Source of the DNA: an uncultured Candidatus Saccharibacteria bacterium | GTDB lineage: Bacteria; Patescibacteriota; Minisyncoccia; Phycocordibacterales; UBA5272 | Assembly (NCBI GenBank): GCA_964369115.1 | Contig: CAYJED010000004.1 | Location: 16,428 to 80,427, forward strand | DNA: 64,000 nt | Direction: 5' to 3' | Shown here: positions 34,059-64,000 of the stretch, piece after piece | How the letters are laid out: the number at the start of each line of letters is the position of its first letter | Position numbering within the stretch: the stretch's first letter is position 1 | The notes under the pieces: model-generated | Databases searched by the model: none | Seen by the model: the letters and a program-made list of their open reading frames with translations, nothing else | Told to the model about the DNA's origin: nothing | Made by a program: the position numbers and the translations under genes

Positions 34059-34476
34059 GCCCTGTCCAGCTTCAAAAAAAGCCCTACTTCGGTAGGGCTT
34101 TTTTCTATACTAAATTTATCTGTTATAACAGAGAAATAACAGATAATTAGCGTAACTATTCCGACTATCTTTTTTGTTGTTATAACAACCAAAAAACAAC
34201 TATTTTTAGTAAAACTTTTTATCTCATTCTGATTGTTATAACAATCAAATAACAATTACGGAGCTGTTTACCAATTGTGATATAATACACACATAAACCT
34301 AACCCTTTCTATCACTAAAAAGGTATGGTTTTCAAAATCACGCTAAATGATAAAGATCTCCCAATGAGCTCTCACATTTAGCGTGTCGTATCTGGAAACG
34401 GATACGGGCCGGGTAACTGGCCAGAGGTTCGTTGGGAGTTTTTTGCTTTTATAAATAAAAATCACGCTAAATAATT

Positions 34477-34992: not shown

Positions 34993-35044
34993 CAAAAACA
35001 ATAACTCATTATCGTGGTAAAATACATATAAGTTATAGAACTTT

Positions 35045-35734: not shown

Positions 35735-35858
35735 ATAAGACCTTGTAGGTATGGTGTGAATTATCATACTGAACAGCTTACTTTGTAACGGTTTCTGAAT
35801 TCCTATAAGGTCGTAATGGGTATGTAATAGGCCCATACATATTTCCTACAATGTTTTT

Positions 35859-36011
35859 ATGACGCTCGAAGAGTTCATAAAAACAATAGGCAAAGAAGCG
35901 GATGGACTATCTCAAGAAGAGATTGAGTTTTACTATACCGTAACAGTAAAAACCTTCGATATATTTTTTGATAGATACAAGAAAGAAAAAATGTTGGTAG
36001 CACACGGATAA
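35859..36011 (+). CDS. small hypothetical protein upstream of recombinase (possible directionality or regulatory factor)
   Basis: 50-aa ORF MTLEEFIKTIGKEADGLSQEEIEFYYTVTVKTFDIFFDRYKKEKMLVAHG. It ends 31 nt before the recombinase. Confidence 0.25.
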   Translation: MTLEEFIKTIGKEADGLSQEEIEFYYTVTVKTFDIFFDRYKKEKMLVAHG

Positions 36012-36042
36012 TTCATCATAAAAATGATAAAATATAACTATA

Positions 36043-37830: not shown

Positions 37831-38061
37831 TATCTATATTTTACAATCTTTTCATAGAAAAACCATCAAAAAGATTTTCTAATTTATATACCGTATCTGG
37901 TATAGAACTATGCATTAGTGAGTAAAATCAAGCAAAAACCTAACCTTGACATTATTGTTTACCAATGCTATAATATAACAACTGAACTAACCCTAAATGA
38001 AAGAGGGAAAGTTAGTCGGTGTATGTTACGAAAACATACATGCTCATTACAGGAGAAAGAC

Positions 38062-38391
38062 ATGAGCCATTTCGATGAGAAGGACAACTTGTTCGGGCCT
38101 GCTCGCGCCTCCATGCGTGCACGTCTCGGCGAGTTCATGGATGTCTACATGGATGCCAAAATCAAGATCGCCCAGAAGCTGGCCGACAAGATCGCCGGCG
38201 AAAATGATGTCGAACAACTGATGGCACTCCGCGCCAAGTTGAACGATGTCATGTTCGCTGAAGATGACATCACCCAGCTGGATACGAAGATCAAGGCGCT
38301 GTTGGCGATGTTGCAGACGAACGCAACTGCCTTCATCACTCTTCGACAGCAGTGGAAGTCGTCCATCGAGGACACTCACGGCCGTCATTGA
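38062..38391 (+). CDS. hypothetical protein (identical copy of 33729..34058)
   Basis: Exact duplicate. Confidence 0.45.
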   Translation: MSHFDEKDNLFGPARASMRARLGEFMDVYMDAKIKIAQKLADKIAGENDVEQLMALRAKLNDVMFAEDDITQLDTKIKALLAMLQTNATAFITLRQQWKSSIEDTHGRH

Positions 38392-38809
38392 GCCCTGTCC
38401 AGCTTCAAAAAAAGCCCTACTTCGGTAGGGCTTTTTTCTATACTAAATTTATCTGTTATAACAGAGAAATAACAGATAATTAGCGTAACTATTCCGACTA
38501 TCTTTTTTGTTGTTATAACAACCAAAAAACAACTATTTTTAGTAAAACTTTTTATCTCATTCTGATTGTTATAACAATCAAATAACAATTACGGAGCTGT
38601 TTACCAATTGTGATATAATACACACATAAACCTAACCCTTTCTATCACTAAAAAGGTATGGTTTTCAAAATCACGCTAAATGATAAAGATCTCCCAATGA
38701 GCTCTCACATTTAGCGTGTCGTATCTGGAAACGGATACGGGCCGGGTAACTGGCCAGAGGTTCGTTGGGAGTTTTTTGCTTTTATAAATAAAAATCACGC
38801 TAAATAATT

Positions 38810-39325
38810 ATGAGTACAAATACAAAAAAGATTTGCAAATACTGTAAATCTGAAATCATTTTGTCTGCTAAAAAATGTCCACAATGTCAGTCGGACCTTC
38901 GTAACTGGTTTGTAAGACACTGGATTATTTCAATACTTATCGGACTTGTTGTTCTTGGAATAATAGGATCAGGATCAAACAAAAATACAACGACTGATAG
39001 TTCAAAAATACCGCAAGGATCAACTGAAAAACAATCAGGTAAACAATATGTAGAGGTGGTGAGGTTTAGTGGAAAGGGTCAGAAAAGTTCAGAACCTTTC
39101 AAGATCAGTGGAAGTAGGTTCAAAGTTACTTACGATTGTAAGGGTGACACCGCGACTACATATTGTGGAGCTTTTGCGTATAAAGTCGGTAGCAATATAC
39201 CTCAAGGTGTTATGAATGCCACACAAGCAGTAAAGGATGAAACTGTTATATATGGATCTGGTGAATATTACATAACAGCTAACACAATGGGTGATTTTTC
39301 TATGGTTATTTACGACTATAAGTAA
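38810..39325 (+). CDS. zinc-ribbon membrane protein (identical copy)
   Basis: Exact duplicate of 34477..34992. Confidence 0.45.
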   Translation: MSTNTKKICKYCKSEIILSAKKCPQCQSDLRNWFVRHWIISILIGLVVLGIIGSGSNKNTTTDSSKIPQGSTEKQSGKQYVEVVRFSGKGQKSSEPFKISGSRFKVTYDCKGDTATTYCGAFAYKVGSNIPQGVMNATQAVKDETVIYGSGEYYITANTMGDFSMVIYDYK

Positions 39326-39377
39326 CAAAAACAATAACTCATTATCGTGGTAAAATACATATAAGTTATAGAACTTT

Positions 39378-40067
39378 ATGGACGGTAATGAGGACTTCAA
39401 CAAGAGCACATATTGGGTACTTTCTGAACTCAAAGAAGAGAGTTTTGTGCTTTCGGATAACGATCAAGAAATAGAATTTTGTTTTGATGGTAGAAAAAGC
39501 TCACCAGATAAAAAAGTTCAAGATAGGGTGCTTCGTTTTCTCGAGAAAGAAAAAGCTGTTTCCCTTACAGCGTTTTATATAAAACCAAAGCCACTAAAAA
39601 ACCTAACTAGAAATTTTGATACCTATGGGTATGGACCAATTGGATATGATGTAAAACTACTACAGCCGAGATTTGATGAACTGTACAATGAATATTCTGC
39701 TTTCAAGTCAAACAAAAATAATAAAGAGCAGTATCAGTTCAATCTCACTATCTATCACGACAGAGGAACATTTTTTGTTGATGAGAAGAGAAAAATAGAA
39801 TTCAGAAATCTTATAAGACCACTTATTATTGAGATACTGTATAAAGCAAAAGGTAAAGATGTTGCTTCGGATAAAATAAAAACAGGGCTACAGAAAAAAC
39901 TACTGAAAGATGGGCACGTTGATAATATCACAAGTATCATTGACGATATGCGCAAGAGTATAAAAAAGCACCTAAAGATAGATCCTAAAATAGTTCTACC
40001 TGATGGTGTTTCTGGTCCTGGTTACAGAATTGGAGATATCGAAATCAATATTGTAAGAGAAAAATAG
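39378..40067 (+). CDS. hypothetical protein (identical copy)
   Basis: Exact duplicate of 35045..35734. Confidence 0.4.
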   Translation: MDGNEDFNKSTYWVLSELKEESFVLSDNDQEIEFCFDGRKSSPDKKVQDRVLRFLEKEKAVSLTAFYIKPKPLKNLTRNFDTYGYGPIGYDVKLLQPRFDELYNEYSAFKSNKNNKEQYQFNLTIYHDRGTFFVDEKRKIEFRNLIRPLIIEILYKAKGKDVASDKIKTGLQKKLLKDGHVDNITSIIDDMRKSIKKHLKIDPKIVLPDGVSGPGYRIGDIEINIVREK

Positions 40068-40375
40068 ATAAGACCTTGTAGGTATGGTGTGAATTATCAT
40101 ACTGAACAGCTTACTTTGTAACGGTTTCTGAATTCCTATAAGGTCGTAATGGGTATGTAATAGGCCCATACATATTTCCTACAATGTTTTTATGACGCTC
40201 GAAGAGTTCATAAAAACAATAGGCAAAGAAGCGGATGGACTATCTCAAGAAGAGATTGAGTTTTACTATACCGTAACAGTAAAAACCTTCGATATATTTT
40301 TTGATAGATACAAGAAAGAAAAAATGTTGGTAGCACACGGATAATTCATCATAAAAATGATAAAATATAACTATA

Positions 40376-42091
40376 ATGGACCAACCAATTTATGTCATAG
40401 GGTATGCTAGAGTGAGTACCCCAAAACAAGCTCAAACTGGTGAGAGTTTGGAGGCACAAGAAAAAGCAATAAGAAAATATTGTGAAAAGAAAGGATATGC
40501 CCTCTTTCCTGATAACAAAGTTTTCAAAGAGCCATATTCTGGGAGTAATCTTTTCAGGCCAGCATACAGAGAAATACTAGGAATTATAAAGAACAATATA
40601 CATTCAAAAACAAAGGTAAAATATTTAGTATTTTGGGACTTTGATCGTCTCACGAGAGGAGGTTCGGCTGATTATGATCAGATATGGAAAGATGTTTCTG
40701 AATATGGCGTTGAATTGAGAGATACAACAGAAATAATTCAAGAGGAAGTAAATATTATAAAGGAAGAGTTTGGTCTTGATATTGAATATGGTTGGAGCAC
40801 AGCCAGACCAAGTGAAGAAGCTGAAAAAACAAAAGCAGAAGACGCAAGGAAACATAAGCGAAAAATATTGCAGACAATGATAACGGCGGAGATCCGTCTA
40901 ACGATAGATGGCTATCACATAGGAAGACCTGATTATGGTTTTCAAAACAAAAAGATTTTTGTGGGCACAAAGAAAAAATGTATCCAGGAAAGATTTGAAC
41001 CCGAAGCGGTATTTGTTGAAAGAATATACAAACTTCGTGCTGAAGGGGTGCTTTCTGATCAAGAAATTTGTAACGATGTGAATACTTTAGGATATAAAAG
41101 TAGAACTTTCAATAAATGGAACAAAGACAAGACAAAAGTGTTGAGTGTTTCCGGGGGCAATAAACTGACCATAAAGCAGTTACAAGATATGATCAAGCGT
41201 TTTACTTACTGTGGTGTTATCTGTGAACGGTGGACCAAATATCAGCCGATAAAAGCAAAGTATGAAGGTCTTGTGACTGTTGATCAGTGGAATACAGCAA
41301 ACAGAGGTAAGGTTCAATTGGAAATAGGAGACGACGATTATTTCACTTTGCTAAAAGATGTAAATATTCATAGTAAGAAGCGTAAAAAATATAACCCTAA
41401 CTTTCCTTTCAAAGGTGTTTTGATGTGTGAAGTATGTGGTAAGGTGATGAAGGCAAGCGCTTCAACTGGTAAAAGTGGGAAACCTTTTCCGGCTTATCAT
41501 TGTGGTAGAGGTCACAAAAATAACGGTATCCCTAAAAAAGAACTTGAAGATGCTTTCAATAATTACTTGGAAAAGATAAAATTCACTGATAAGTTCTTGA
41601 ATATTTTTGAAAAGACAGTTTATCTACAATTCAGAAAGAGAGAAGGAGAGCTTGCTGATTATACAAGCAAGGCAAATATCAATGTTGGAGAATTAGAAGC
41701 GCAGAAATCTGCACTTATAAAGTCATTCCCAGCAGCAACTCACCCAGAGGTTAGAAAAGGAATAGAAGATGAGATAACTAAACTGCAAGACGAGATTGCT
41801 AAAGCAAGATCACAAAGAGATAAAATGGAGATCGAAGAAGCTGACGTTGAGAATTTTATTGCTTGGTGTAAGGAAACAATGGAACACCCAACAAAAATCC
41901 TTACAGATATTAGGTCCGAGCAAGAATTAGCGAACACTTTTTTACTTTTCTTTGAGAAGTTTCCTACCTATACAGAATTAGTTAGTGGAACACCTAAACT
42001 ATCTTTAGTTTTCAAGCTTTCAGAAGAATTCAAGGTCAATCAAGACCTGTTGGTGACCCTACGGAGAGTCGAACTCCGCTTCCAGGCATGA
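40376..42091 (+). CDS. large serine recombinase (integrated-form C-terminus, reads into tRNA-Glu antisense)
   Basis: Identical to 36043..37830 for 560 aa, then diverges at the GGTGA core into ...TLRRVELRFQA encoded by the complement of the tRNA-Glu 3' half. Confidence 0.8.
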   Translation: MDQPIYVIGYARVSTPKQAQTGESLEAQEKAIRKYCEKKGYALFPDNKVFKEPYSGSNLFRPAYREILGIIKNNIHSKTKVKYLVFWDFDRLTRGGSADYDQIWKDVSEYGVELRDTTEIIQEEVNIIKEEFGLDIEYGWSTARPSEEAEKTKAEDARKHKRKILQTMITAEIRLTIDGYHIGRPDYGFQNKKIFVGTKKKCIQERFEPEAVFVERIYKLRAEGVLSDQEICNDVNTLGYKSRTFNKWNKDKTKVLSVSGGNKLTIKQLQDMIKRFTYCGVICERWTKYQPIKAKYEGLVTVDQWNTANRGKVQLEIGDDDYFTLLKDVNIHSKKRKKYNPNFPFKGVLMCEVCGKVMKASASTGKSGKPFPAYHCGRGHKNNGIPKKELEDAFNNYLEKIKFTDKFLNIFEKTVYLQFRKREGELADYTSKANINVGELEAQKSALIKSFPAATHPEVRKGIEDEITKLQDEIAKARSQRDKMEIEEADVENFIAWCKETMEHPTKILTDIRSEQELANTFLLFFEKFPTYTELVSGTPKLSLVFKLSEEFKVNQDLLVTLRRVELRFQA

Positions 42092-42125
42092 GAAGCCTGT
42101 GTCCTAGCCGATAGACGATAGGGCC
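42051..42125 (-). tRNA. tRNA-Glu (anticodon CUC), CCA encoded
   Basis: The reverse complement folds as a cloverleaf: acceptor GGCCCTA/TAGGGTC, anticodon stem CAGGC/GCCTG with loop UUCUCAU, T-arm CGGAG-TTCGACT-CTCCG, 3' ACCA. Confidence 0.7.
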
Positions 42126-53963: not shown

Positions 53964-55700
53964 TTAAATGCGGTTAATTTCTTTATAAACTTCAAGGATC
54001 GGTTCGGGAATATCTTCGACACGGATAGTCCTCGTAGAATAATCATTCTTATACTCATTCTTACCCCAACCAAAAACATACAGCGTTGTTGGCTGATTTT
54101 TCTTCTCAAGAATCTTTATAATTTCTTTAAGTTTTGTTTTATCTTCCGTGAAATAGATAGCGGTTAACTTTCCGTTACCTTCAAAAATTTGCCACCACTC
54201 ATTTTTATCGACTTCATTTGAGGTGTTTTCTCGGAGTGCGATCATCTCTCCAGCCTGATAAGTAATTTTAATTTTTGCCTCATCAGAAATACGATGTAAC
54301 TTATCTACGTTTACCATATCGGTTTTAAAGTAAGATAAATTCCCACTAAGACCCTCGACTTTCACTCCTTTTCTGTTTTTATATCCTTTAATAACGCGTT
54401 TCAATCGCTCATATGTAACTTCTTCACAGATCTTATTTTCATTATTCGTACAAAGAATAAACTTACGATTACCACCATCTTGTTTATTGAGTTCAAGAAC
54501 GGCATGACCTGTAGTACCAGAGCCAGCGAAAAAATCGAGAATAACAGCATCTCTTTTGTCACTCATAACTCTTAAACTATCCATTACTGCGTAGAGAGAT
54601 TTTGGATAAGAAAATATTTGAAGTTCTGCGAAAATATCTTTTAATAGATTTGTTCCGTAAGCAGTCGAAGAATATTCTTTCTTATCCCACCAAGTCATAG
54701 GCAAAATTCCATCTTCGTTCATTCGTCCCTTTACATAAATCTGAAGTTTGCTTTTTTGTATACGAGATTGAAATTCATCCTGTTCATTCATGAATCTTTC
54801 AATACCCCAACGCCAACGTCTTTGCTTGCCGTCATCATCAATTGGATAGATTATTTCCTCTCCCTTTTTAGGCTTTTCTAATAATTGGTAATCTTCTAAA
54901 TTGTCGTCCCATGTTAATTTAGGCAACCTAATTGAATCTTTGGTTGCAAAGATCGGGTAGTACATTTTTGGAGACTCTTCTCGCATACTTCCGGGCTTGC
55001 GGAAGTTAACCCATTCAAAAGCACCATTCGCGTCTTTTTCATCATATCGGTCAATTTGAGACTGGTTTCTATCAAGTCTGGACACAAAAGCGGATTCTGT
55101 TTTTCCAAAAAAGACGGCATATTCGTGGGTAATAGATATTCCTTTTGTTGTAGATCTGCCCGCTGGATTGTTTCTGATAGGCACAGTTCCTAAATGATTG
55201 AATTCTCCAAAAATTTCTTCCATCAAGAGAATCAGTCTTGAAATTTCATAATCATCAATCGTGACGCAAATTATGCCATTTTCTTTGAGCAAGTTTTTAG
55301 CCAAACGCAACCTCTTTTCCATAAAAGAGATCCACTTGCTATGGCGAAAATTGTCGTTCTTATCTACATAGTCATTGTTGTATCGCCAGTCTGTTGCGCC
55401 GGTATTGTATGGCGGATCCGCGTAAATAACATCGACTGCGCCGCGATGCGTATAGTTCAAAACAGAAAGCGAGTGGTAATTATCTCCCTCGATTAGAATG
55501 TTCGTCGGGAGTGAATTATCAGAAACTAACTTTCTACTTTTAACTTCTTTAAGAAGAGGAATATTCGTCTCGCATTGCAAAACGACATCCTCTGGTTTAT
55601 CTTCCCAGACGAGTCCGTATTTTTTGCGATTCTTTAATTTTTTTATTTCAGATTGTAAATCTGAAATTTGAGCGCGTAGCTCTTTTTCTGTTTGAGACAT
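53964..55700 (-). CDS. mod: Type III restriction-modification system Mod methyltransferase
   Basis: IYADPPYNTG (motif IV) and FFAGSGTTGHA (motif I). 578 aa, immediately upstream of res. Confidence 0.85.
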   Translation of the reverse strand: MSQTEKELRAQISDLQSEIKKLKNRKKYGLVWEDKPEDVVLQCETNIPLLKEVKSRKLVSDNSLPTNILIEGDNYHSLSVLNYTHRGAVDVIYADPPYNTGATDWRYNNDYVDKNDNFRHSKWISFMEKRLRLAKNLLKENGIICVTIDDYEISRLILLMEEIFGEFNHLGTVPIRNNPAGRSTTKGISITHEYAVFFGKTESAFVSRLDRNQSQIDRYDEKDANGAFEWVNFRKPGSMREESPKMYYPIFATKDSIRLPKLTWDDNLEDYQLLEKPKKGEEIIYPIDDDGKQRRWRWGIERFMNEQDEFQSRIQKSKLQIYVKGRMNEDGILPMTWWDKKEYSSTAYGTNLLKDIFAELQIFSYPKSLYAVMDSLRVMSDKRDAVILDFFAGSGTTGHAVLELNKQDGGNRKFILCTNNENKICEEVTYERLKRVIKGYKNRKGVKVEGLSGNLSYFKTDMVNVDKLHRISDEAKIKITYQAGEMIALRENTSNEVDKNEWWQIFEGNGKLTAIYFTEDKTKLKEIIKILEKKNQPTTLYVFGWGKNEYKNDYSTRTIRVEDIPEPILEVYKEINRI

Positions 55701-56004
55701 AGGGGTACAGTTCTATGTCTCGGCTATCCATATTTGGTTTGTATAGAAACGGCAAAGAGGGACAGCCGAGCCTGTACCCCATAATGGTGCTACCCCGAAA
55801 GGTTCCTGTTATGGAACTCGGACTGCCCCTCTTTGCCTATAACAGGTAAGAGAAAACAGTCCTTTCGGGGACGAAGCACTAAATATATAAACACTATGGG
55901 GTACAAATGAACTCTAACATAAAAACACCTCTAAATAAAGGCTTATTTAGAGGTGTTTACCAACAGTCTGGACTTTGCGAGTGCTTCGCGTCATTTAATA
56001 GTAT

Positions 56005-56328
56005 GTGGACGATATTGAGGCCGTTATCAAGGCCAGCCAGCATTTCAAATATGAGGAATCCGAGGTAAGTTATGCTTTCAACAAAGCCTCTGACTTACCG
56101 GAATCTAAGTCGAATCTGAAGCGAGCCATAAAGGAGCGCATTCAGCTTTTGTGCGCTTCATATATTTCACTGGCTTCTTTCTTGCCTGATGAGGATGCGG
56201 AATATTTGCTCGGCCTTCATGGAGAGCAGAAGAAAAAGCGATCAATTAAAATCATGATGCGAATGATGAAAGAAATGGATAAGCTCGAAAAAGAGATCCG
56301 TAATTTTGATCCGTTTTCACCTCTATAA
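56005..56328 (+). CDS. hypothetical protein (GTG start; duplicate at 59374..59697)
   Basis: 107-aa ORF downstream of a 15-bp-stem hairpin. No clear RBS. Confidence 0.25.
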   Translation: MDDIEAVIKASQHFKYEESEVSYAFNKASDLPESKSNLKRAIKERIQLLCASYISLASFLPDEDAEYLLGLHGEQKKKRSIKIMMRMMKEMDKLEKEIRNFDPFSPL

Positions 56329-56419
56329 AAAATTGAGCGGACTCGCTTCGCGAGTAAATGCCAAAGGGTCAAAGAACCCAAGAGTCAAAGAATCAGAAAA
56401 ATACAAAGAGACAACAGGT

Positions 56420-58261
56420 CTAAGATTCAGACTTGCGGAGACGGAACACGAACTCAACGTCCGGAATCCACGCGCTGTCGGGCGACGCCCAACTGCGGCG
56501 CAGCCACAAACCGCCAACGTCGCGTTCGAGGCGGAAGACGTACGGGCTGCCGCCGGAGTCAGCGATTTGCTTCATACCAATACGTACCCATTCATTGAGA
56601 GGTTGATCTTTGTATTTAAGACGATAGTTAGGACCAGTATCAGGAGGACACAACTCCAAGCCAAGCGTTTGTGCGCGTTCGTAAATTTGGTCAGTGGTAG
56701 CGCTTGTCTTGAATCCGAGGTCAGCGACAGTAAGACGGATGAGTGTTGCTTCTTCGCGAGTCTTTCCGGGAATGAAGTCGCGATTTTTCATCATAGACTT
56801 TGCGTAATCAGAAATATTTATGTGAGCCGCTTCCATTTCAGCAATTAACTGTTCAGTAGTCTTGCCTCCGATCTCTACGCTTTCTCTGCGGATTTTCTTT
56901 TCAGGGAATGAAGTGTAGACATGTTCAAGACCTTCCGGCAATTTTTGGAATATGCCTGGTTCAAGCTGTCCGACATAGGCTTTGGTGTCTTTTGTGATCT
57001 GACTTGGCACGTGAGCAATATCTTCTTTTGTACACTCAAAAATAACAAGCATGTCTTCCTCGGTGTTTCGCCCTTTGCGTAGTTCAGCGATACGAGGGTC
57101 TGTCTGATAACCGAACCCTTCAATTGATGAATTGATTTCGTAGAGGAATACTAAATCGTCTTTGGTAAAGGGTTCATCCTGTTCACGCTTCTGGTCGAGA
57201 GCGGTCAGTATTTTCATATCTCCGCTTTTCTTGCGGTACGCATCAGCCTCACCACCAAAGTCTTGGAGTTTTGCATCAAGTGCTTCCTGCATAATTGGCT
57301 CTACGCCCTGATGCGGAAGAATACCTCTCACTTCGCCGATTCTATTGTCGCCCTCCATGCGGATCGCAAGACGAGGTTGGGTTGGTTCGCCGTTTGAATC
57401 ATTCGTGTAATAAACATAAAAGTCGCCATTCTCTATTTGTGTTTCTGCTGTCGATTTACCGGCAGTACACCAACCAGTTCCTTTTCCTTCAAGTGACTCA
57501 AATAATTGTTCGGCATCGCCGCTCTGTCCTTGTTGATATTTTTTCCATTCACCTTTAACTTCCTCGCGGTTCTCCATTGAAGCGGCGAGAGATTTTGAAA
57601 TGAGTTCGGCGTATAAGCTCGGAAACTTTTGAGAAAAGGCTTCGCGGATTTCAGGCTCTTTGAGATTCTTATTGTCTTCTTTTACCTTGAGATAAATATC
57701 AGCAATCTGTGCCAACGGCTCGCGGTAGATATCGGGGTATGGTGCAACAGTACTATCGGTACGCTTTTTGAACTCGCCACGCTCCTTGTCGAACTGTGAA
57801 AGTTTAGTGATATTTTTCCAAACGAAGTACTTGAACCACGCTGGGTACATAGCATCGTCTGAAGTAAGGTACTCCATCCACGCATCAAGCGATGCCCGCT
57901 GATCTTCAATAGCAACATCCATCATTTGTTCACGGACATTGTCAGGAATTTCCTCTACTGCTTGTCCGCGCTCGCGGGCGATGCGTTTCTGTAATTCAAA
58001 ATATGATTCAGGAAAATTCTCCTTCTTTATGATGAACGCATCATATATTTTATCGCGAAACATTTCGAGATTGCGTTCGCGTTTCTTTTCGTCAGGGTTA
58101 AGAAAAACATTCTCCAAGCGATCCATGTATGCCTCGATACGCTCGGCAGGATCGTTCGGCATTTTTTCGCCAGTGTGTCGCTCCTCTCGCACAACTGCCC
58201 GATTTACCTCGGGAGAGGTTTGGAGTTCTGGGCTTTTAAGATGGAGCGGATGTTTTTCCAT
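56420..58261 (-). CDS. DGR target protein with C-terminal CLec-like variable region (copy 1)
   Basis: 613 aa. The C-terminus SGGSPYVFRLERDVGGLWLRRSWASPDSAWIPDVEFVFRLRK corresponds codon-for-codon to the Asn-rich TR. There is no signal peptide. Confidence 0.8.
   Translation of the reverse strand: MEKHPLHLKSPELQTSPEVNRAVVREERHTGEKMPNDPAERIEAYMDRLENVFLNPDEKKRERNLEMFRDKIYDAFIIKKENFPESYFELQKRIARERGQAVEEIPDNVREQMMDVAIEDQRASLDAWMEYLTSDDAMYPAWFKYFVWKNITKLSQFDKERGEFKKRTDSTVAPYPDIYREPLAQIADIYLKVKEDNKNLKEPEIREAFSQKFPSLYAELISKSLAASMENREEVKGEWKKYQQGQSGDAEQLFESLEGKGTGWCTAGKSTAETQIENGDFYVYYTNDSNGEPTQPRLAIRMEGDNRIGEVRGILPHQGVEPIMQEALDAKLQDFGGEADAYRKKSGDMKILTALDQKREQDEPFTKDDLVFLYEINSSIEGFGYQTDPRIAELRKGRNTEEDMLVIFECTKEDIAHVPSQITKDTKAYVGQLEPGIFQKLPEGLEHVYTSFPEKKIRRESVEIGGKTTEQLIAEMEAAHINISDYAKSMMKNRDFIPGKTREEATLIRLTVADLGFKTSATTDQIYERAQTLGLELCPPDTGPNYRLKYKDQPLNEWVRIGMKQIADSGGSPYVFRLERDVGGLWLRRSWASPDSAWIPDVEFVFRLRKSES
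56432..56564 (-). repeat. DGR variable repeat VR (copy 1)
   Basis: The reverse complement matches TR 58554..58686 at 110/133 positions; all 23 mismatches are opposite TR adenines. Confidence 0.85.
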
Positions 58262-58553
58262 ATATGGTTCGCATTATAGCATAAATTACTGCGAAATAAA
58301 GAGGTTTTTGGTATACTATTTTCAGATTGGTTTCATTGAACGGCTACGGTTTTTCAAGACCAATTTACTTCATGTAGATTGAGAGCGCGAACGGTTACGG
58401 CTTTTCGCGGAGGATGTGCATTGAGGTCTTTAAAAAGAAAAAACTTGGTGCGACGCGCTGGTTGATTTTCGATCACGCATAACGATACAGCACGGCTTCT
58501 GGCATATCATGTGCGCTTAAGTCGGCGGTGAGATGGATGGCGTGCCGCACAAA

Positions 58554-58686
58554 CGCTGACTCCGACGGCAACCCGAACGTCTTCAACCTCGAACGCAACG
58601 ATGACGGTTTGTGGCTGAACAACAATTGGGCGAAACCCGACAACACGTGGAATCCGGACAATAAGTTCGTGTTCCGTCTCCGAAAC
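58554..58686 (+). repeat. DGR template repeat TR (copy 1)
   Basis: Non-coding AAC-rich repeat (translating as ...SDGNPNVFNLERNDDGLWLNNNWAKPDNTWNPDNKFVFRLRN), followed by a hairpin ccgcgac..gtcgcgg. Confidence 0.85.
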
Positions 58687-58710
58687 TATTTTCTTTTCCG
58701 CGACCTCATG

Positions 58711-59121
58711 TTACATGTCGCGGTTTTTCTTTTCAGGGTTGGCAAGATTTTTCTTCCAACCGCCAAACATCTTGCCAACTTCTTCGAGTTTCAATGCAAC
58801 GCTCTCACAGTGAGCGTTTGAAATAAGCTTGCCCTCCCATGCAACAGAAACAAGAAACTTTAGTGTGTCTAACACCAAAATACACTCATTAATTTTCTCC
58901 TCTTTCTTATCTTTTTCTATAAAATAGGCAATGTATGACAATTCAAGCAGATCGAGAAACTTGTTCTCAATTCGTGAGCCAATTGTATAGCGTGCCCCTT
59001 TAGCAATATGCGGAACAATATTAACCCAAATCAAATAGCCCTCTTTAATCCTGTTGAGAATCGAGGCGTTGTTGGTGTGCGAAAGTCGGGGGGGGGGGGG
59101 GAGATTAGTAGCTCGGTTCAT
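58711..59121 (-). CDS. avd: Avd-like four-helix-bundle accessory protein (copy 1)
   Basis: About 130 aa with HIAKGARYTIGSRIENKFLDLLELSYIA...LEEVGKMFGGWKK, resembling the Avd/23S-rRNA-IVS four-helix-bundle family. A poly-C run (14 nt) encodes PPPP near the N-terminus. Confidence 0.6.
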   Translation of the reverse strand: MNRATNLPPPPRLSHTNNASILNRIKEGYLIWVNIVPHIAKGARYTIGSRIENKFLDLLELSYIAYFIEKDKKEEKINECILVLDTLKFLVSVAWEGKLISNAHCESVALKLEEVGKMFGGWKKNLANPEKKNRDM

Positions 59122-59211
59122 ATCTACAATAATATCATTTCTGTCGAAAACTTACTCGTCGCATGGCGAGAATTCCTCCATGGAAAACGGACTGCCCCTC
59201 TTTGCCTATAA
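59008..59211 (+). pseudogene. truncated 5' fragment of the DGR reverse transcriptase (copy 1 of duplication)
   Basis: Identical to the first 60 codons of the 62377.. ORF (...ENLLVAWREFLHGKR), then interrupted by the duplication junction. Confidence 0.6.
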
Positions 59212-59373
59212 CAGGTAAGAGAAAACAGTCCTTTCGGGGACGAAGCACTAAATATATAAACACTATGGGGTACAAATGAACTCTAACATAAAAACACCTC
59301 TAAATAAAGGCTTATTTAGAGGTGTTTACCAACAGTCTGGACTTTGCGAGTGCTTCGCGTCATTTAATAGTAT

Positions 59374-59697
59374 GTGGACGATATTGAGGCCGTTATCAAG
59401 GCCAGCCAGCATTTCAAATATGAGGAATCCGAGGTAAGTTATGCTTTCAACAAAGCCTCTGACTTACCGGAATCTAAGTCGAATCTGAAGCGAGCCATAA
59501 AGGAGCGCATTCAGCTTTTGTGCGCTTCATATATTTCACTGGCTTCTTTCTTGCCTGATGAGGATGCGGAATATTTGCTCGGCCTTCATGGAGAGCAGAA
59601 GAAAAAGCGATCAATTAAAATCATGATGCGAATGATGAAAGAAATGGATAAGCTCGAAAAAGAGATCCGTAATTTTGATCCGTTTTCACCTCTATAA
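59374..59697 (+). CDS. hypothetical protein (duplicate of 56005..56328)
   Basis: Exact duplicate. Confidence 0.25.
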   Translation: MDDIEAVIKASQHFKYEESEVSYAFNKASDLPESKSNLKRAIKERIQLLCASYISLASFLPDEDAEYLLGLHGEQKKKRSIKIMMRMMKEMDKLEKEIRNFDPFSPL

Positions 59698-59788
59698 AAA
59701 ATTGAGCGGACTCGCTTCGCGAGTAAATGCCAAAGGGTCAAAGAACCCAAGAGTCAAAGAATCAGAAAAATACAAAGAGACAACAGGT

Positions 59789-61630
59789 CTAAGATTCAGA
59801 CTTGCGGAGACGGAACACGAACTCAACGTCCGGAATCCACGCGCTGTCGGGCGACGCCCAACTGCGGCGCAGCCACAAACCGCCAACGTCGCGTTCGAGG
59901 CGGAAGACGTACGGGCTGCCGCCGGAGTCAGCGATTTGCTTCATACCAATACGTACCCATTCATTGAGAGGTTGATCTTTGTATTTAAGACGATAGTTAG
60001 GACCAGTATCAGGAGGACACAACTCCAAGCCAAGCGTTTGTGCGCGTTCGTAAATTTGGTCAGTGGTAGCGCTTGTCTTGAATCCGAGGTCAGCGACAGT
60101 AAGACGGATGAGTGTTGCTTCTTCGCGAGTCTTTCCGGGAATGAAGTCGCGATTTTTCATCATAGACTTTGCGTAATCAGAAATATTTATGTGAGCCGCT
60201 TCCATTTCAGCAATTAACTGTTCAGTAGTCTTGCCTCCGATCTCTACGCTTTCTCTGCGGATTTTCTTTTCAGGGAATGAAGTGTAGACATGTTCAAGAC
60301 CTTCCGGCAATTTTTGGAATATGCCTGGTTCAAGCTGTCCGACATAGGCTTTGGTGTCTTTTGTGATCTGACTTGGCACGTGAGCAATATCTTCTTTTGT
60401 ACACTCAAAAATAACAAGCATGTCTTCCTCGGTGTTTCGCCCTTTGCGTAGTTCAGCGATACGAGGGTCTGTCTGATAACCGAACCCTTCAATTGATGAA
60501 TTGATTTCGTAGAGGAATACTAAATCGTCTTTGGTAAAGGGTTCATCCTGTTCACGCTTCTGGTCGAGAGCGGTCAGTATTTTCATATCTCCGCTTTTCT
60601 TGCGGTACGCATCAGCCTCACCACCAAAGTCTTGGAGTTTTGCATCAAGTGCTTCCTGCATAATTGGCTCTACGCCCTGATGCGGAAGAATACCTCTCAC
60701 TTCGCCGATTCTATTGTCGCCCTCCATGCGGATCGCAAGACGAGGTTGGGTTGGTTCGCCGTTTGAATCATTCGTGTAATAAACATAAAAGTCGCCATTC
60801 TCTATTTGTGTTTCTGCTGTCGATTTACCGGCAGTACACCAACCAGTTCCTTTTCCTTCAAGTGACTCAAATAATTGTTCGGCATCGCCGCTCTGTCCTT
60901 GTTGATATTTTTTCCATTCACCTTTAACTTCCTCGCGGTTCTCCATTGAAGCGGCGAGAGATTTTGAAATGAGTTCGGCGTATAAGCTCGGAAACTTTTG
61001 AGAAAAGGCTTCGCGGATTTCAGGCTCTTTGAGATTCTTATTGTCTTCTTTTACCTTGAGATAAATATCAGCAATCTGTGCCAACGGCTCGCGGTAGATA
61101 TCGGGGTATGGTGCAACAGTACTATCGGTACGCTTTTTGAACTCGCCACGCTCCTTGTCGAACTGTGAAAGTTTAGTGATATTTTTCCAAACGAAGTACT
61201 TGAACCACGCTGGGTACATAGCATCGTCTGAAGTAAGGTACTCCATCCACGCATCAAGCGATGCCCGCTGATCTTCAATAGCAACATCCATCATTTGTTC
61301 ACGGACATTGTCAGGAATTTCCTCTACTGCTTGTCCGCGCTCGCGGGCGATGCGTTTCTGTAATTCAAAATATGATTCAGGAAAATTCTCCTTCTTTATG
61401 ATGAACGCATCATATATTTTATCGCGAAACATTTCGAGATTGCGTTCGCGTTTCTTTTCGTCAGGGTTAAGAAAAACATTCTCCAAGCGATCCATGTATG
61501 CCTCGATACGCTCGGCAGGATCGTTCGGCATTTTTTCGCCAGTGTGTCGCTCCTCTCGCACAACTGCCCGATTTACCTCGGGAGAGGTTTGGAGTTCTGG
61601 GCTTTTAAGATGGAGCGGATGTTTTTCCAT
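59789..61630 (-). CDS. DGR target protein (copy 2, identical)
   Basis: Identical 613-aa product, VR included. Confidence 0.8.
   Translation of the reverse strand: MEKHPLHLKSPELQTSPEVNRAVVREERHTGEKMPNDPAERIEAYMDRLENVFLNPDEKKRERNLEMFRDKIYDAFIIKKENFPESYFELQKRIARERGQAVEEIPDNVREQMMDVAIEDQRASLDAWMEYLTSDDAMYPAWFKYFVWKNITKLSQFDKERGEFKKRTDSTVAPYPDIYREPLAQIADIYLKVKEDNKNLKEPEIREAFSQKFPSLYAELISKSLAASMENREEVKGEWKKYQQGQSGDAEQLFESLEGKGTGWCTAGKSTAETQIENGDFYVYYTNDSNGEPTQPRLAIRMEGDNRIGEVRGILPHQGVEPIMQEALDAKLQDFGGEADAYRKKSGDMKILTALDQKREQDEPFTKDDLVFLYEINSSIEGFGYQTDPRIAELRKGRNTEEDMLVIFECTKEDIAHVPSQITKDTKAYVGQLEPGIFQKLPEGLEHVYTSFPEKKIRRESVEIGGKTTEQLIAEMEAAHINISDYAKSMMKNRDFIPGKTREEATLIRLTVADLGFKTSATTDQIYERAQTLGLELCPPDTGPNYRLKYKDQPLNEWVRIGMKQIADSGGSPYVFRLERDVGGLWLRRSWASPDSAWIPDVEFVFRLRKSES
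59801..59933 (-). repeat. DGR variable repeat VR (copy 2, identical to copy 1)
   Basis: Offset of 3369 from VR copy 1. Confidence 0.85.
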
Positions 61631-61922
61631 ATATGGTTCGCATTATAGCATAAATTACTGCGAAATAAAGAGGTTTTTGGTATACTATTTTCAGATTGGT
61701 TTCATTGAACGGCTACGGTTTTTCAAGACCAATTTACTTCATGTAGATTGAGAGCGCGAACGGTTACGGCTTTTCGCGGAGGATGTGCATTGAGGTCTTT
61801 AAAAAGAAAAAACTTGGTGCGACGCGCTGGTTGATTTTCGATCACGCATAACGATACAGCACGGCTTCTGGCATATCATGTGCGCTTAAGTCGGCGGTGA
61901 GATGGATGGCGTGCCGCACAAA

Positions 61923-62055
61923 CGCTGACTCCGACGGCAACCCGAACGTCTTCAACCTCGAACGCAACGATGACGGTTTGTGGCTGAACAACAATTGGGC
62001 GAAACCCGACAACACGTGGAATCCGGACAATAAGTTCGTGTTCCGTCTCCGAAAC
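61923..62055 (+). repeat. DGR template repeat TR (copy 2)
   Basis: Offset of 3369 from TR copy 1. Confidence 0.85.
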
Positions 62056-62079
62056 TATTTTCTTTTCCGCGACCTCATG

Positions 62080-62490
62080 TTACATGTCGCGGTTTTTCTT
62101 TTCAGGGTTGGCAAGATTTTTCTTCCAACCGCCAAACATCTTGCCAACTTCTTCGAGTTTCAATGCAACGCTCTCACAGTGAGCGTTTGAAATAAGCTTG
62201 CCCTCCCATGCAACAGAAACAAGAAACTTTAGTGTGTCTAACACCAAAATACACTCATTAATTTTCTCCTCTTTCTTATCTTTTTCTATAAAATAGGCAA
62301 TGTATGACAATTCAAGCAGATCGAGAAACTTGTTCTCAATTCGTGAGCCAATTGTATAGCGTGCCCCTTTAGCAATATGCGGAACAATATTAACCCAAAT
62401 CAAATAGCCCTCTTTAATCCTGTTGAGAATCGAGGCGTTGTTGGTGTGCGAAAGTCGGGGGGGGGGGGGGAGATTAGTAGCTCGGTTCAT
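62080..62490 (-). CDS. avd: Avd-like accessory protein (copy 2)
   Basis: Identical to copy 1. The G14 tract lies at 62457..62470. Confidence 0.6.
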   Translation of the reverse strand: MNRATNLPPPPRLSHTNNASILNRIKEGYLIWVNIVPHIAKGARYTIGSRIENKFLDLLELSYIAYFIEKDKKEEKINECILVLDTLKFLVSVAWEGKLISNAHCESVALKLEEVGKMFGGWKKNLANPEKKNRDM

Positions 62491-63480
62491 ATCTACAATA
62501 ATATCATTTCTGTCGAAAACTTACTCGTCGCATGGCGAGAATTCCTCCATGGAAAACGGAGCCGTAAAGATGTAGCCCAATTTTCAGTGCATCTGACCGA
62601 TAATATACTTGCCCTTCATCGTGAACTCGTTGATAAGACCTACCATCACGGTCCATACAAAGCTTTTCGTATCAACGATCCTAAGCCGCGCGATATTCAT
62701 AAGGCGAGTGTTCGTGATCGGTTACTTCACCATGCTATTTATAGAATTTTGTATCCATATTTTGATCCTAAATTTATTTTTGATTCATACTCATGTCGTC
62801 GTGGCAAAGGCACGCACCGTGCGCTTGATAGATTCCGAGACTATGCGCGCAAAGTTTCTAAAAATCATATCCAAACGGTGTGGGTGTTAAAGTGCGATAT
62901 CAGAAAGTTTTTTGCAAACATTGATCACAGAATTTTGGAAGATATTTTGAAACTCAGGATGGGAGATGAAGATGTGATACGGCTTTTCAGAGAAATAGTC
63001 GGCAGTTTTAATACCAAAGACAAACACGGTGTCGGTCTCCCTCTTGGCAATTTGACGAGCCAGCTACTAGTAAACATTTATATGAATGAGTTTGATCACT
63101 TTCTCAAGCGAGATTTGAAAATTAAATACTGCGTCAGATATGCGGATGATTTTGTTATCCTGCATAAAGACAAAAAATATTTAGAAAGTGTCTTGCCAAA
63201 AATCTCTGCATTTTTAGAGACAAGGCTCAAGCTTTCTCTGCATCCCGATAAGGTATTTATAAAAACATTCGCTTCGTGCGTGGACTTTCTTGGTTGGGTG
63301 CATTTTCCGCATCATCGCGTACCGAGGACATCAACAAAAAAGAGAATGTTCAGAAATTTAAATCAAAACCCAAAAAAGGAATCACTAAGTTCCTATGCTG
63401 GACTTCTGAGTCACGGCGATACACATGAATTACGAGAGACGATATTTGAGCGGTATTCAGACAATAAGGAGAAAAACTGA
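62377..63480 (+). CDS. DGR-type reverse transcriptase (5' boundary uncertain; ORF overlaps avd on the opposite strand)
   Basis: RT motifs: RINDPKPRDIHKASVRDRLLHHAI (1-2), LKCDIRKFFANIDH (3), GLPLGNLTSQLLVNIYM (4, the DGR-type SQ variant), YADD (5), LHPDK (6), FLGW (7). Confidence 0.8.
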   Translation: MRNNINPNQIALFNPVENRGVVGVRKSGGGGEISSSVHIYNNIISVENLLVAWREFLHGKRSRKDVAQFSVHLTDNILALHRELVDKTYHHGPYKAFRINDPKPRDIHKASVRDRLLHHAIYRILYPYFDPKFIFDSYSCRRGKGTHRALDRFRDYARKVSKNHIQTVWVLKCDIRKFFANIDHRILEDILKLRMGDEDVIRLFREIVGSFNTKDKHGVGLPLGNLTSQLLVNIYMNEFDHFLKRDLKIKYCVRYADDFVILHKDKKYLESVLPKISAFLETRLKLSLHPDKVFIKTFASCVDFLGWVHFPHHRVPRTSTKKRMFRNLNQNPKKESLSSYAGLLSHGDTHELRETIFERYSDNKEKN

Positions 63481-63554
63481 TTTTTGAGTTACCAACACCT
63501 ACCACTCGGGACGCTCTGGACTCCTAGGGCGAGTTGCGTCATCAATGTAGCTGT

Positions 63555-64000
63555 ATGAAAACAACAGCACCAATTGGCTACGAAATGACCCAAGTAGTCC
63601 AAACGCCAATAAAAGCACGATATTGCCTCTATGCCCGTAAATCGACGGAATCAGAAGAAAGACAAGTCCTTTCAATAGATTCACAGATCAAGGAAATGTT
63701 ACAGCTCGCAGAAAGAGAAGGCCTTGAGATTGTGGCAATGAAAAGAGAGTCCCACTCTGCCAAAGAGACAGGGCAACGACCCGTGTTCAATGAAATAATC
63801 GAAGAGCTCAGACAAGAGAAATTCAATGCGATATTAACTTGGGCACCTGATCGAATTAGCAGAAATGCCGGTGACTTGGGAAAGATAGTGGATCTCATGG
63901 ATGCAGGTAAGCTACTTCAAATACGGACATTTGGGCAAACATTTTCTAATAATCCCAATGAGAAGTTCCTCTTAATGATCCTCGGATCGCAGGCAAAGCT
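63555..64000 (+). CDS. serine recombinase (resolvase-domain N-terminus), 3' partial at window end
   Basis: MKTTAPIGY...YCLYARKSTESEERQVLSIDSQ...LTWAPDRISRN shows the catalytic Ser motif and the start of the resolvase fold. The ORF runs off the window. Confidence 0.7.
   Translation, partial: MKTTAPIGYEMTQVVQTPIKARYCLYARKSTESEERQVLSIDSQIKEMLQLAEREGLEIVAMKRESHSAKETGQRPVFNEIIEELRQEKFNAILTWAPDRISRNAGDLGKIVDLMDAGKLLQIRTFGQTFSNNPNEKFLLMILGSQAK

What the first reader, a model, noticed from the sequence alone, without database searches (positions are those of the whole stretch)
62457..62470. G14 homopolymer inside the avd N-terminal codons and the RT leader (in both cassette copies): candidate phase-variation switch
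A 14-G run on the plus strand (59088..59101 and 62457..62470) encodes LPPPPR at the start of the minus-strand avd ORF. It also lies in the plus-strand region between the TR and the RT catalytic core, where the long RT ORF translates it as KSGGGGE. Homopolymers of this length are prone to slipped-strand mispairing, so a change of one nucleotide would alter the reading frame at the avd N-terminus, or the RT leader, or both. This could switch the DGR on and off. The avd ORF also appears to lack the first helix of canonical Avd, and stops lie a short distance upstream in all three frames.
Basis: partly seen in the sequence, partly recalled or inferred. Interest (0 to 1): 0.6.

Follow-up and report, generated by a model that had tools for sequence, protein, structure and literature searches.

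The report
Repeat-tract on/off switch in a retroelement
The 14-G run is the local form of a fast-changing simple repeat that almost all related protein-diversifying retroelements of ultra-small (CPR) bacteria carry in the first codons of their helper gene avd, and it most likely switches the element on and off at random.

Summary
The G14 runs are real (59088-59101 and 62457-62470). They lie in one perfect 3369-bp tandem duplication, so they count as one observation.

On the minus strand the run encodes codons 7-12 (LPPPPR) of a bona fide Avd. This falls in a predicted disordered tail before helix 1; all four helices are predicted. On the plus strand the run sits at the 5' edge of the part of the RT that aligns to Bordetella bRT.

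In 161 related Patescibacteria DGR loci, avd and RT are always divergent. About 90% carry an uninterrupted simple repeat at this same spot:
- G7-14, (GA)n of 10-50 nt, or G/GA hybrids.
- Once (GT)24, and twice a tract on the opposite strand.

Four further results:
- Contigs with identical flanks differ only in tract length.
- The avd ATG is in frame in 33% of repeat-bearing loci, as expected by chance, but in 13 of 13 repeat-less loci (p=2e-6).
- Out-of-frame loci keep intact Avd and RT bodies.
- In this window, G11, G14 and G17 keep both Avd and the long RT ORF open. Every other length truncates both.

Best reading: a slipped-strand phase-variation switch that gates the DGR. It is not proven, because I had no read-level data, and decoding by transcriptional or ribosomal slippage remains possible. 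I found no published report of it.

The parts
62457..62470 (.). G14 (plus strand) / C14 (minus strand) simple-sequence tract, copy 2. Codons 7-12 of avd, and the leader of the RT.
59088..59101 (.). The same tract in copy 1 of the tandem duplication. Not an independent observation.
62080..62490 (-). avd, 136 aa, copy 2. ATG at 62490, disordered tail residues 1-20, four-helix bundle residues 21-127.
   Evidence: Pfam PF22296 bAvd, 45.4 bits against a cut-off of 40. AF2 model pLDDT 85. About 960 homologues.
58711..59121 (-). avd, copy 1, identical to copy 2.
62377..63480 (+). DGR reverse transcriptase, longest ORF of 367 aa. Canonical starts are ATG 62377 or GTG 62446, both upstream of the tract. 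The bRT-homologous core begins at residue 40, just after the tract. An in-frame ATT at 62473 sits where relatives have ATG.
   Evidence: Pfam RVT_1. PDB 8ub7 bRT, E=2.7e-44, query residue 40 = bRT residue 9..
59008..59211 (+). Truncated RT stub of 67 aa, cut by the duplication junction at 59188-59191.
61907..62058 (+). Template repeat (TR), copy 2. Same sense as the RT, convergent with avd. Copy 1 is at 58538-58689.
   Evidence: TR/VR alignment: 25 of 30 mismatches are at TR adenines.
59789..61630 (-). Target gene of 613 aa, copy 2, with the variable repeat at its C-terminal end (59798-59948). Copy 1 is at 56420-58261.
55819..62560 (.). Perfect tandem duplication (2 x 3369 bp) that holds target gene + TR + avd + the 5' end of the RT.

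Best explanation
The G14/C14 run is a hypermutable simple-sequence repeat inside the 5' coding region of avd. It falls in a disordered N-terminal tail that tolerates any in-frame length, and it overlaps the leader of the divergently transcribed RT.

Proposed mechanism (inferred): slipped-strand mispairing during replication changes the tract length. Only lengths of 3n+2 (G11, G14, G17) leave the avd ATG at 62490 in frame with the four-helix bundle. In this lineage the same lengths leave the upstream RT starts in frame with the RT core. Bordetella work shows that RT needs Avd for cDNA synthesis, so tract length would act as a heritable, reversible, stochastic ON/OFF switch for adenine mutagenesis of the target gene. 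Cells would diversify when ON and lock in a variable-protein allele when OFF. The window's G14 is an ON allele.

Shown here: the tract, its coding position, its conservation, its length hypervariability, the frame statistics and the in-silico ON/OFF outcomes.

Inferred: switching within populations, loss of Avd protein in OFF alleles, and the effect on DGR activity.
For: 1. The element is a bona fide DGR. It has a bAvd, an RT homologous to bRT, and a TR/VR pair with 25 of 30 mismatches at TR adenines.
2. A repeat sits at the same place in nearly all relatives, with avd and RT always divergent: 80 metagenome loci and about 68 of 80 species-representative genomes across many CPR lineages, with Avd identity down to 30%.
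3. The motif is not conserved. It is G(n), (GA)n, hybrids, (GT)24 in L105, poly-G on the avd strand in L040 and (CT)n on the RT strand in L153. What is kept is repetitiveness, not sequence.
4. Repeats are otherwise almost absent: 146 hits at the junction against 10 elsewhere in 708 kb.
5. Of 20 locus pairs with at least 95% (mostly 100%) identical 120-nt flanks, 10 differ in tract length. Nine of those 10 differ by a non-multiple of 3.
6. The avd ATG is in frame in 43 of 131 repeat-bearing loci, against 48 expected by chance (p=0.41). It is in frame in 13 of 13 repeat-less loci (Fisher p=1.8e-6) and in a 14th, L161. Interrupted or decayed tracts (L037, L095, L106) are in frame.
7. Synonymous codon turnover at Ser/Ile/Leu/Arg right next to the tract shows that avd is translated up to it, and no start codon lies between the tract and helix 1.
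8. OFF loci keep an intact Avd body (90 of 94) and an intact RT (75 of 80), so OFF alleles are not decaying.
9. Simulation of G10-G18: Avd is 135-137 aa and RT 366-368 aa only at G11, G14 and G17. Otherwise Avd is 24-30 aa and the long RT ORF 32-66 aa. Stops in all upstream frames prevent rescue by another start.
10. Tract-encoded residues lie in a region with pLDDT below 50, before helix 1.
Against: - I have no read-level data, so heterogeneity within one population is unproven.
- Homopolymer lengths in assemblies, especially nanopore MAGs, can be wrong by 1 nt. The (CT)n class, which is less prone to this error, gives the same 33% (24 of 72).
- Two-thirds of natural consensus alleles being OFF is equally what one expects if frame does not matter, because RNA polymerase or ribosomes could slip on the tract.
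- Conservation of a contingency repeat across phylum-level divergence is unusual.
- In distant relatives RT has its own ATG after the tract (33 of 41), so the claim that both genes switch holds only for this sub-family. Even here an ATT start at 62473 would make RT independent of the tract.
- The two duplicated target genes have identical variable repeats, which gives no sign of ongoing mutagenesis in this genome.
Confidence: 0.6

Rival explanations
1. Frame-agnostic decoding. The tract is a programmed slippery site. RNA polymerase stutters on G/C runs, or P-site tRNAs re-pair after a shift of 1 nt on C(n) or 2 nt on (CU)n. Each allele would then yield some full-length Avd whatever its DNA length. 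The tract would act as an expression attenuator or noise generator rather than a heritable switch.
For: - Frames are exactly random among 131 loci.
- OFF loci stay intact.
- Tracts (mono 7-14 nt, di 10-50 nt) are at or above the roughly 9-nt RNA-DNA hybrid length at which slippage is known for A/T runs (my own knowledge; the paper listed, PMC1088944, covers A/T runs).
Against: - Known programmed slippage genes keep a fixed out-of-frame arrangement, whereas here the arrangement is random.
- To my knowledge no precedent exists for efficient slippage on (CT)n dinucleotide runs.
- Repeat-less relatives are always simply in frame (13 of 13), so there is no intrinsic need for recoding.
- Length differences between otherwise identical contigs show that DNA-level change occurs in any case.
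Confidence: 0.2
2. A nucleic-acid element. The homopurine/homopyrimidine tract would form H-DNA or another structure, set promoter spacing in the tight divergent avd/RT region, or be a functional part of the TR-containing DGR RNA. Its translation would be incidental.
For: - Most tracts are homopurine on the RT/TR-sense strand.
- A TAnnnT hexamer often follows the tract directly in RT orientation.
- The tract lies in the RT 5' leader in distant relatives.
Against: - The motif and strand are not conserved: (GT)24 in L105, and reversed strand in L040 and L153.
- Lengths of 7 to 50 nt are incompatible with a -35/-10 spacer.
- The scan found no sigma-70-like promoter at the tract.
- Thirteen or 14 relatives have intact avd and RT with no tract at all.
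- Its distance to the RT ATG varies from 9 to 60 nt.
Confidence: 0.1
3. A neutral mutational hotspot. The repeat would arise and persist by slippage bias in repair-poor CPR genomes, in a tolerant disordered tail of a dispensable gene, with no selected function.
For: - The tail is disordered and tolerant.
- Frames are random.
Against: - Repeats are confined to this one site (146 against 10 in 708 kb).
- They stay pure across Avd lineages only 30-40% identical.
- The motif is replaced rather than lost.
- OFF alleles remain under purifying selection.
Confidence: 0.08
4. A sequencing or assembly artefact, for example poly-G from two-colour chemistry or a homopolymer error.
For: - The exact length of a 14-nt homopolymer is hard to call.
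- The window contains two suspiciously perfect tandem duplications.
Against: - Independent assemblies from many projects carry G9-G14 at the identical site with the same flanks (L001-L004).
- The tract is internal to the contig, and the ORFs are open on both strands.
- More than 130 homologous loci have a repeat at this spot.
Confidence: 0.02

Closest known systems
CT-dinucleotide and poly-G/C contingency loci with the repeat in the 5' coding region. Examples are Helicobacter pylori outer-membrane protein genes such as sabA/oipA, and Campylobacter jejuni and Neisseria meningitidis poly-G genes.
   Same: An uninterrupted repeat lies a few codons after the start and is read as (LS)n or Pro/Gly runs. 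Length varies between near-identical strains. Only one frame in three is ON, and strains show a mix of ON and OFF alleles. (Own knowledge; PMC2715451, PMC4965091 and PMC3315296 as listed.)
   Different: - The gated gene is not a surface antigen or a methylase. It is the accessory subunit of a targeted hypermutation machine.
- The hosts are free-living or episymbiotic CPR bacteria, not host-adapted pathogens.
- The repeat position is kept across very deep divergence while the motif turns over.
- The tract also overlaps a divergent gene's leader.
Prototype DGR of Bordetella phage BPP-1 (avd-TR-brt).
   Same: It has an RT homologous to bRT (E=2.7e-44), a bAvd-family four-helix protein, and a TR/VR pair with adenine-specific differences at the 3' end of a target gene.
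   Different: - avd is inverted and sits between the TR and the RT.
- Its 5' end overlaps the RT leader.
- A simple repeat sits in its first codons.
- No such tract or switch is described for BPP-1 in the papers I could search.
Haemophilus influenzae hifA/hifB divergent fimbrial genes with a (TA)n repeat.
   Same: One repeat placed between two divergent genes controls both at once. (Own knowledge.)
   Different: There the repeat sets -35/-10 spacing of overlapping promoters. Here it lies inside an ORF, its length range of 7-50 nt excludes a spacer role, and no promoter hexamers were found.
Phase-variable Type III mod genes (phasevarions).
   Same: A stochastic repeat switch in an enzyme gene has genome-wide or downstream consequences rather than changing a single surface structure (PMC5909438, listed).
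   Different: The downstream effect here would be switching a mutator of one gene on or off, not changing a methylome.
Programmed transcriptional slippage (IS transposases, Thermus dnaX).
   Same: A long homopolymer lies in a coding region where the frame encoded in the DNA need not equal the frame that is expressed (PMC1088944, listed).
   Different: Those cases use A/T runs with a conserved out-of-frame layout. Here the layout is random and most tracts are dinucleotide.

Membership tests
Diversity-generating retroelement (DGR) | A reverse transcriptase of the DGR type. | tested here: met
   Pfam RVT_1 at 83.6 bits. The best PDB match is Bordetella bRT 8ub7, E=2.7e-44, over residues 40-360.
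Diversity-generating retroelement (DGR) | A template/variable repeat pair that differs almost only at template adenines. | tested here: met
   TR 61907-62058 against VR 59948-59798: 25 of 30 mismatches are A-to-N. The remainder lie at the alignment ends.
Diversity-generating retroelement (DGR) | An Avd accessory protein (four-helix bundle). | tested here: met
   PF22296 bAvd at 45.4 bits, above the cut-off of 40. AF2 predicts four helices, pLDDT 85.
Diversity-generating retroelement (DGR) | A variable repeat within a C-type-lectin-like or Ig-like ligand-binding domain at the target C-terminus. | tested here: inconclusive
   The variable repeat is at the C-terminus, but the target has no Pfam match. 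Its fold was not modelled.
Repeat-mediated phase-variable (contingency) locus | An uninterrupted simple repeat, above the instability threshold, inside an ORF or promoter. | tested here: met
   C14 forms codons 7-12 of avd. Relatives have mono runs of 7-14 nt and dinucleotide runs of 10-50 nt.
Repeat-mediated phase-variable (contingency) locus | Tract-length polymorphism between otherwise near-identical sequences. | tested here: met
   Ten of 20 pairs with at least 95% identical flanks differ in tract length, nine of them by a non-multiple of 3. The window's own clade has lengths 9, 9, 10, 14 and 14 and 11 (P0002 and P0003).
Repeat-mediated phase-variable (contingency) locus | Length changes toggle an intact against a truncated product. 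| tested here: met
   In silico only. G11, G14 and G17 give Avd of 135-137 aa. Other lengths give 24-30 aa.
Repeat-mediated phase-variable (contingency) locus | High-frequency, reversible switching within a clonal population. | not testable with these tools
   This needs read pile-ups or culture. The only indirect support is that OFF alleles remain intact.
Repeat-mediated phase-variable (contingency) locus | A phenotype (here DGR activity) that follows the ON/OFF state. | not testable with these tools
   No expression or activity data were available.
Programmed transcriptional slippage / recoding site | A conserved out-of-frame arrangement that requires slippage for the functional product. | tested here: not met
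   Frame states are about 1:1:1 across 131 loci, and repeat-less relatives are in frame.
Promoter-spacer repeat switch (hifA/B, porA, opc type) | A tract between the -35 and -10 hexamers, with total spacing near 17 nt. | tested here: not met
   No promoter-like site at the tract. Tract lengths of 7-50 nt. avd is coding right up to the tract.
H-DNA-forming homopurine/homopyrimidine mirror repeat as a structural element | Homopurine strand asymmetry conserved among homologues. | tested here: not met
   (GT)24 in L105. Reversed strand in L040 and L153. Thirteen or 14 loci have no tract.

The most novel reading that the evidence does not exclude
The CPR-specific DGR clade may carry a built-in two-tier evolvability device. 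A slippage-driven stochastic switch in the first codons of avd, co-phased with the RT leader in this sub-family, would turn a targeted hypermutation machine on and off. This would give bursts of diversification followed by heritable lock-in. Retention of a repeat at one codon position across phylum-scale divergence, while its motif turns over (G(n), (GA)n, (GT)n, and strand flips), would be an unusually clear case of selection for mutability itself.
Probability: 0.5. Interest if true: 0.85.

Novelty: new variant of a known kind. Interest (0 to 1): 0.72.

Why it matters
How cells limit the cost of a DGR that keeps mutating a useful gene is an open question. A recent Bacteroides DGR study says so explicitly and expects bursts of mutagenesis separated by quiescence.

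A repeat-based ON/OFF switch on Avd would be a concrete, testable answer for the large DGR clade restricted to Patescibacteria (Roux et al. 2021, clade 2). These organisms have tiny genomes and few regulators.

There are practical consequences too:
- Gene callers annotate these avd genes inconsistently, at 107, 115, 131-137 or 160-213 aa for near-identical genes.
- Surveys that score DGRs as complete or active should take tract phase into account.
- Tract phase in metagenomic reads could serve as a read-out of DGR state in uncultured bacteria.

Tried and rejected
- An exact-sequence look-up of the window's Avd found no contig, although an identical cluster representative exists.
- The key CPR DGR paper (Paul et al. 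2017, PMC5436926) is not held, so I cannot exclude that it mentions the tract.
- Six full-text searches or in-paper searches linking DGR or Avd with homopolymer, poly-G/C, repeat, phase variation or slippage found nothing relevant.
- The promoter/terminator scan around the tract found no promoter at the tract. I rejected the promoter-spacer idea.
- The Shine-Dalgarno idea for the G or (GA)n tract was rejected. The distance to the RT ATG varies from 9 to 60 nt in distant relatives, and many close relatives have no start after the tract.
- I considered that avd starts after the tract at the TTG of 'ASIL'. I rejected this because that Leu codon varies synonymously (TTG/CTG/CTC) and the preceding Ser/Ile codons also vary synonymously.
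- A profile search of Avd against PDB sequences gave no hit.
- The viral contig collection holds only one relative (L161), which has no repeat and is in frame. The family is therefore cellular.
- The hairpin downstream of the target gene looked like a possible DGR target-recognition hairpin. It is followed by a T-run and sits about 65 nt past the stop, so it is more likely an ordinary terminator.

Full report
**Observation.** The plus strand carries G14 at 59088-59101 and at 62457-62470. No run of 10 or more G occurs in 100 dinucleotide-preserving shuffles. The only other G or C run of 7 or more in the 64 kb is a G7 at 8582. The two tracts are not independent. Positions 55819-59191 and 59188-62560 are 100% identical, forming a 3369-bp tandem duplication with a 4-nt CGGA junction. 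The duplication contains the target gene, the TR, avd and the first 61 codons of the RT. Copy 1 therefore ends in a 67-aa RT stub, and only copy 2 continues into a full RT.

**What the locus is.**
- ORF 62080-62490 (minus strand, 136 aa) matches Pfam bAvd above its cut-off.
- ORF 62377-63480 (plus strand, 367 aa) is an RVT_1 reverse transcriptase. Its best solved relative is the Bordetella DGR enzyme bRT (8ub7, E=2.7e-44).
- A 152-nt plus-strand template repeat (61907-62058) matches the 3' end of the minus-strand 613-aa gene (59798-59948). Of 30 mismatches, 25 are at template adenines.

This is a bona fide DGR with the layout target(-), TR(+), avd(-), RT(+). avd is inverted between the TR and the RT.

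**Where the tract sits.**
- On the minus strand the tract is codons 7-12 of avd (MNRATN-LPPPPR-LSHTNNASILNRIKEGY...).
- AlphaFold2, run with 28 homologues, gives pLDDT 85 and four helices (21-38, 41-67, 70-96, 102-127). Residues 1-20 score below 50.
- On the plus strand the long RT ORF reads the tract as GGGG. bRT aligns only from residue 40, which equals bRT residue 9, so the homologous RT core begins right after the tract.
- No ATG, GTG or TTG lies between the tract and the conserved H-I-Y-N-N-I-I-S-V-E-N-L-L. The canonical starts (GTG 62446, ATG 62377) lie upstream of the tract. An in-frame ATT at 62473 sits where relatives have ATG.

**Relatives.** The Avd has about 960 homologues, named where named as Paceibacterota, Minisyncoccota or Patescibacteria. 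Their N-termini read (LS)n, PPP(P) or mixtures exactly where ours reads LPPPPR. I fetched 80 metagenome loci, 80 species-representative genome loci and one viral locus.
- In every locus that holds both genes, avd and RT are divergent, with their 5' ends abutting or overlapping.
- An uninterrupted simple repeat lies between the conserved Avd helix 1 and the conserved RT N-terminus in about 90% of loci.
- In the close Avd family (57-99% identity) it is (GA)n of 10-50 nt on the RT strand in most loci, and G7-G14 in the window's clade.
- In a distant Avd family (30-44% identity; RT 50-65%) it is G7-G13.
- Hybrids (GA)nG(n) occur in L018 and L088. L105 has (GT)24. L040 has poly-G on the avd strand. 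L153 has (CT)n on the RT strand.
- Elsewhere in the 708 kb of these loci there are only 10 comparable repeats, against 146 at this junction.

The conserved property is thus a repeat at this position, not a particular sequence or strand.

**Is the tract translated in avd?** The evidence says yes.
- The codons just 3' of the tract in avd (D-x-A-S-I-L-N-R) vary synonymously among loci: Ser TCG/TCC/TCT, Ile ATT/ATC, Leu TTG/CTG/CTC, Arg CGA/CGG/AGA. Translation must therefore begin upstream of them.
- No start codon lies between them and the tract.
- An ATG sits 14-23 nt beyond the tract in all loci. It is the antisense of a conserved RT His codon.
- In the repeat-less loci of the close family (L100, L103, L106, L107) this ATG is in frame through linkers of 24-36 nt.
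- Overall 13 of 13 repeat-less loci have an in-frame ATG, and so does the viral L161.

**Signature of hypermutability and phase.**
- Among 20 locus pairs with at least 95% (mostly 100%) identical 120-nt flanks on both sides, 10 differ in tract length. Nine of these differ by a non-multiple of 3. One example is L005, L013 and L014, which have identical flanks and tracts of C8, C9 and C9 with or without a CT unit.
- The window's own clade (96-99% Avd identity) has lengths 9, 9, 10, 14 and 14, and 11 in P0002 and P0003.
- Across 131 de-duplicated repeat-bearing loci the avd ATG is in frame in 43 (33%). Random phase predicts 48 (p=0.41). The ratio is the same for (CT)n (24 of 72) and for homopolymers (18 of 60).
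- Repeat-less loci are 13 of 13 in frame (Fisher p=1.8e-6). Interrupted or decayed tracts (L037, L095, L106) are also in frame.
- Out-of-frame loci are not decaying. The Avd body is intact in 90 of 94 and the RT in 75 of 80, similar to in-frame loci.

**Consequences in this window.** I simulated G10 to G18. Avd is full length (135-137 aa) and the long RT ORF is open (366-368 aa) only at G11, G14 and G17. At every other length Avd stops after 24-30 aa and the long RT ORF after 32-66 aa. Stops in all three frames within 33 nt upstream of the avd ATG rule out rescue from another start. The two ORFs are co-phased because the candidate start ATG of each gene is the antisense of a conserved His codon of the other (RT 'H-I-Y', Avd 'V-P-H-I'). 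In all 18 state-0 loci of the close family, the avd ATG and an RT ATG 65-80 nt upstream of the tract are in frame together.

In the distant family the RT has its own ATG 9-60 nt downstream of the tract (33 of 41). The gene that is gated universally is therefore avd. RT dependence on the tract is specific to this sub-family and uncertain.

**Mechanism.** The best-supported reading is a classical slipped-strand contingency switch placed in the 5' codons of avd. The window's allele (G14) is ON. Bordetella work shows that RT needs Avd for cDNA synthesis (PMC6182149, abstract). An OFF allele should therefore silence mutagenic retrohoming and fix the current variable-protein sequence, and slippage back would re-arm it.

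The main rival is that frame does not matter because RNA polymerase or ribosomes slip on the tract. This also predicts random DNA phase and intact OFF alleles. It fits less well for three reasons: most tracts are dinucleotide, known recoding sites keep a fixed out-of-frame layout, and repeat-less relatives are simply in frame.

Structural or promoter roles are disfavoured by several results:
- motif and strand turnover;
- the length range of 7-50 nt;
- the absence of promoter hexamers;
- the existence of repeat-less relatives.

An artefact is excluded by the many independent assemblies that carry a tract at the same site. The exact length of any single homopolymer call remains uncertain.

**Comparison and novelty.** The closest analogues in how it works are 5'-coding CT repeats in Helicobacter outer-membrane protein genes, poly-G genes in Campylobacter and Neisseria, and phase-variable mod genes. 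The element itself is a DGR of the Patescibacteria-restricted clade. I found no report linking DGRs, Avd or CPR DGRs to simple repeats, phase variation or slippage. The primary CPR DGR paper could not be read. I rate the finding a new variant of known kinds: a contingency switch controlling a targeted mutator.

**Limits.**
- All evidence is comparative and in silico.
- There are no reads, transcripts or proteins.
- The loci are not phylogenetically independent, although de-duplication and the consistency across three repeat classes reduce this concern.
- The true RT start in this clade is unresolved.
- The two perfect tandem duplications in the window (3369 bp and 4333 bp) may be assembly artefacts. 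The identical variable repeats in the two target copies give no sign of current activity.

Noticed in passing
window 55819-59191 and 59188-62560: A perfect 3369-bp tandem duplication of target gene + TR + avd + the RT 5' end, with a CGGA microhomology junction. The two target genes have identical variable repeats, which is unexpected for an active DGR. It is either a very recent event or an assembly artefact.
   Followed up: partly
window 33386-37723 and 37719-42056: A second perfect tandem duplication (period 4333, GGTGA junction). Each unit carries a LOOT RNA (Rfam RF03000; 34296-34422 and 38629-38755). The right end falls inside tRNA-Glu (42051-42125, minus strand), which suggests a tandemly integrated small element or a misassembly.
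   Followed up: partly
window 62488-62490 / 62377-62379, and homologous loci L001-L108: The candidate start ATG of each gene is the exact antisense of a conserved His codon (CAT) of the other gene (RT 'H-I-Y...', Avd 'V-P-H-I'). The two divergent ORFs are therefore codon-aligned antisense on both sides of the tract and are in frame or out of frame together.
   Followed up: partly
L081-L108: Avd proteins 57-89% identical to the window's occur in genomes assigned to very different CPR lineages: Moranii-, Ryan-, Vogel-, Magasanik-, Andersen-, Levyi-, Davies-, Roizman-, Dojka- and Woesebacteria. A few are in bins labelled non-CPR. This suggests horizontal spread of the cassette, or mis-binning.
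   Followed up: no
(protein clusters P0001-P0156): Gene callers annotate near-identical avd genes as 107, 110, 115, 131-137 or 160-213 aa, depending on tract phase. Database Avd lengths for this family are therefore unreliable.
   Followed up: partly
window 59710-59724 (minus-strand sense): A GC-rich 6-bp hairpin (ACTCGC-GAA-GCGAGT on the target-gene strand) followed by a T-run, about 65 nt downstream of the target gene's stop. It looks like an intrinsic terminator rather than the DGR target-recognition hairpin.
   Followed up: partly
window ~63550-64000 (+) and 53964-55700 (-): A serine-recombinase-like ORF starts just downstream of the RT and runs off the window. An N6/N4 DNA methylase (PF01555) lies just upstream of the duplicated cassette. 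This may be a mobile-element context for the DGR.
   Followed up: no
L106 junction: A CT-rich but non-repetitive linker (CTTCTTCTTTCTCCTTCT) sits at the tract position and is in frame. It looks like a decayed repeat fixed in the ON phase.
   Followed up: no
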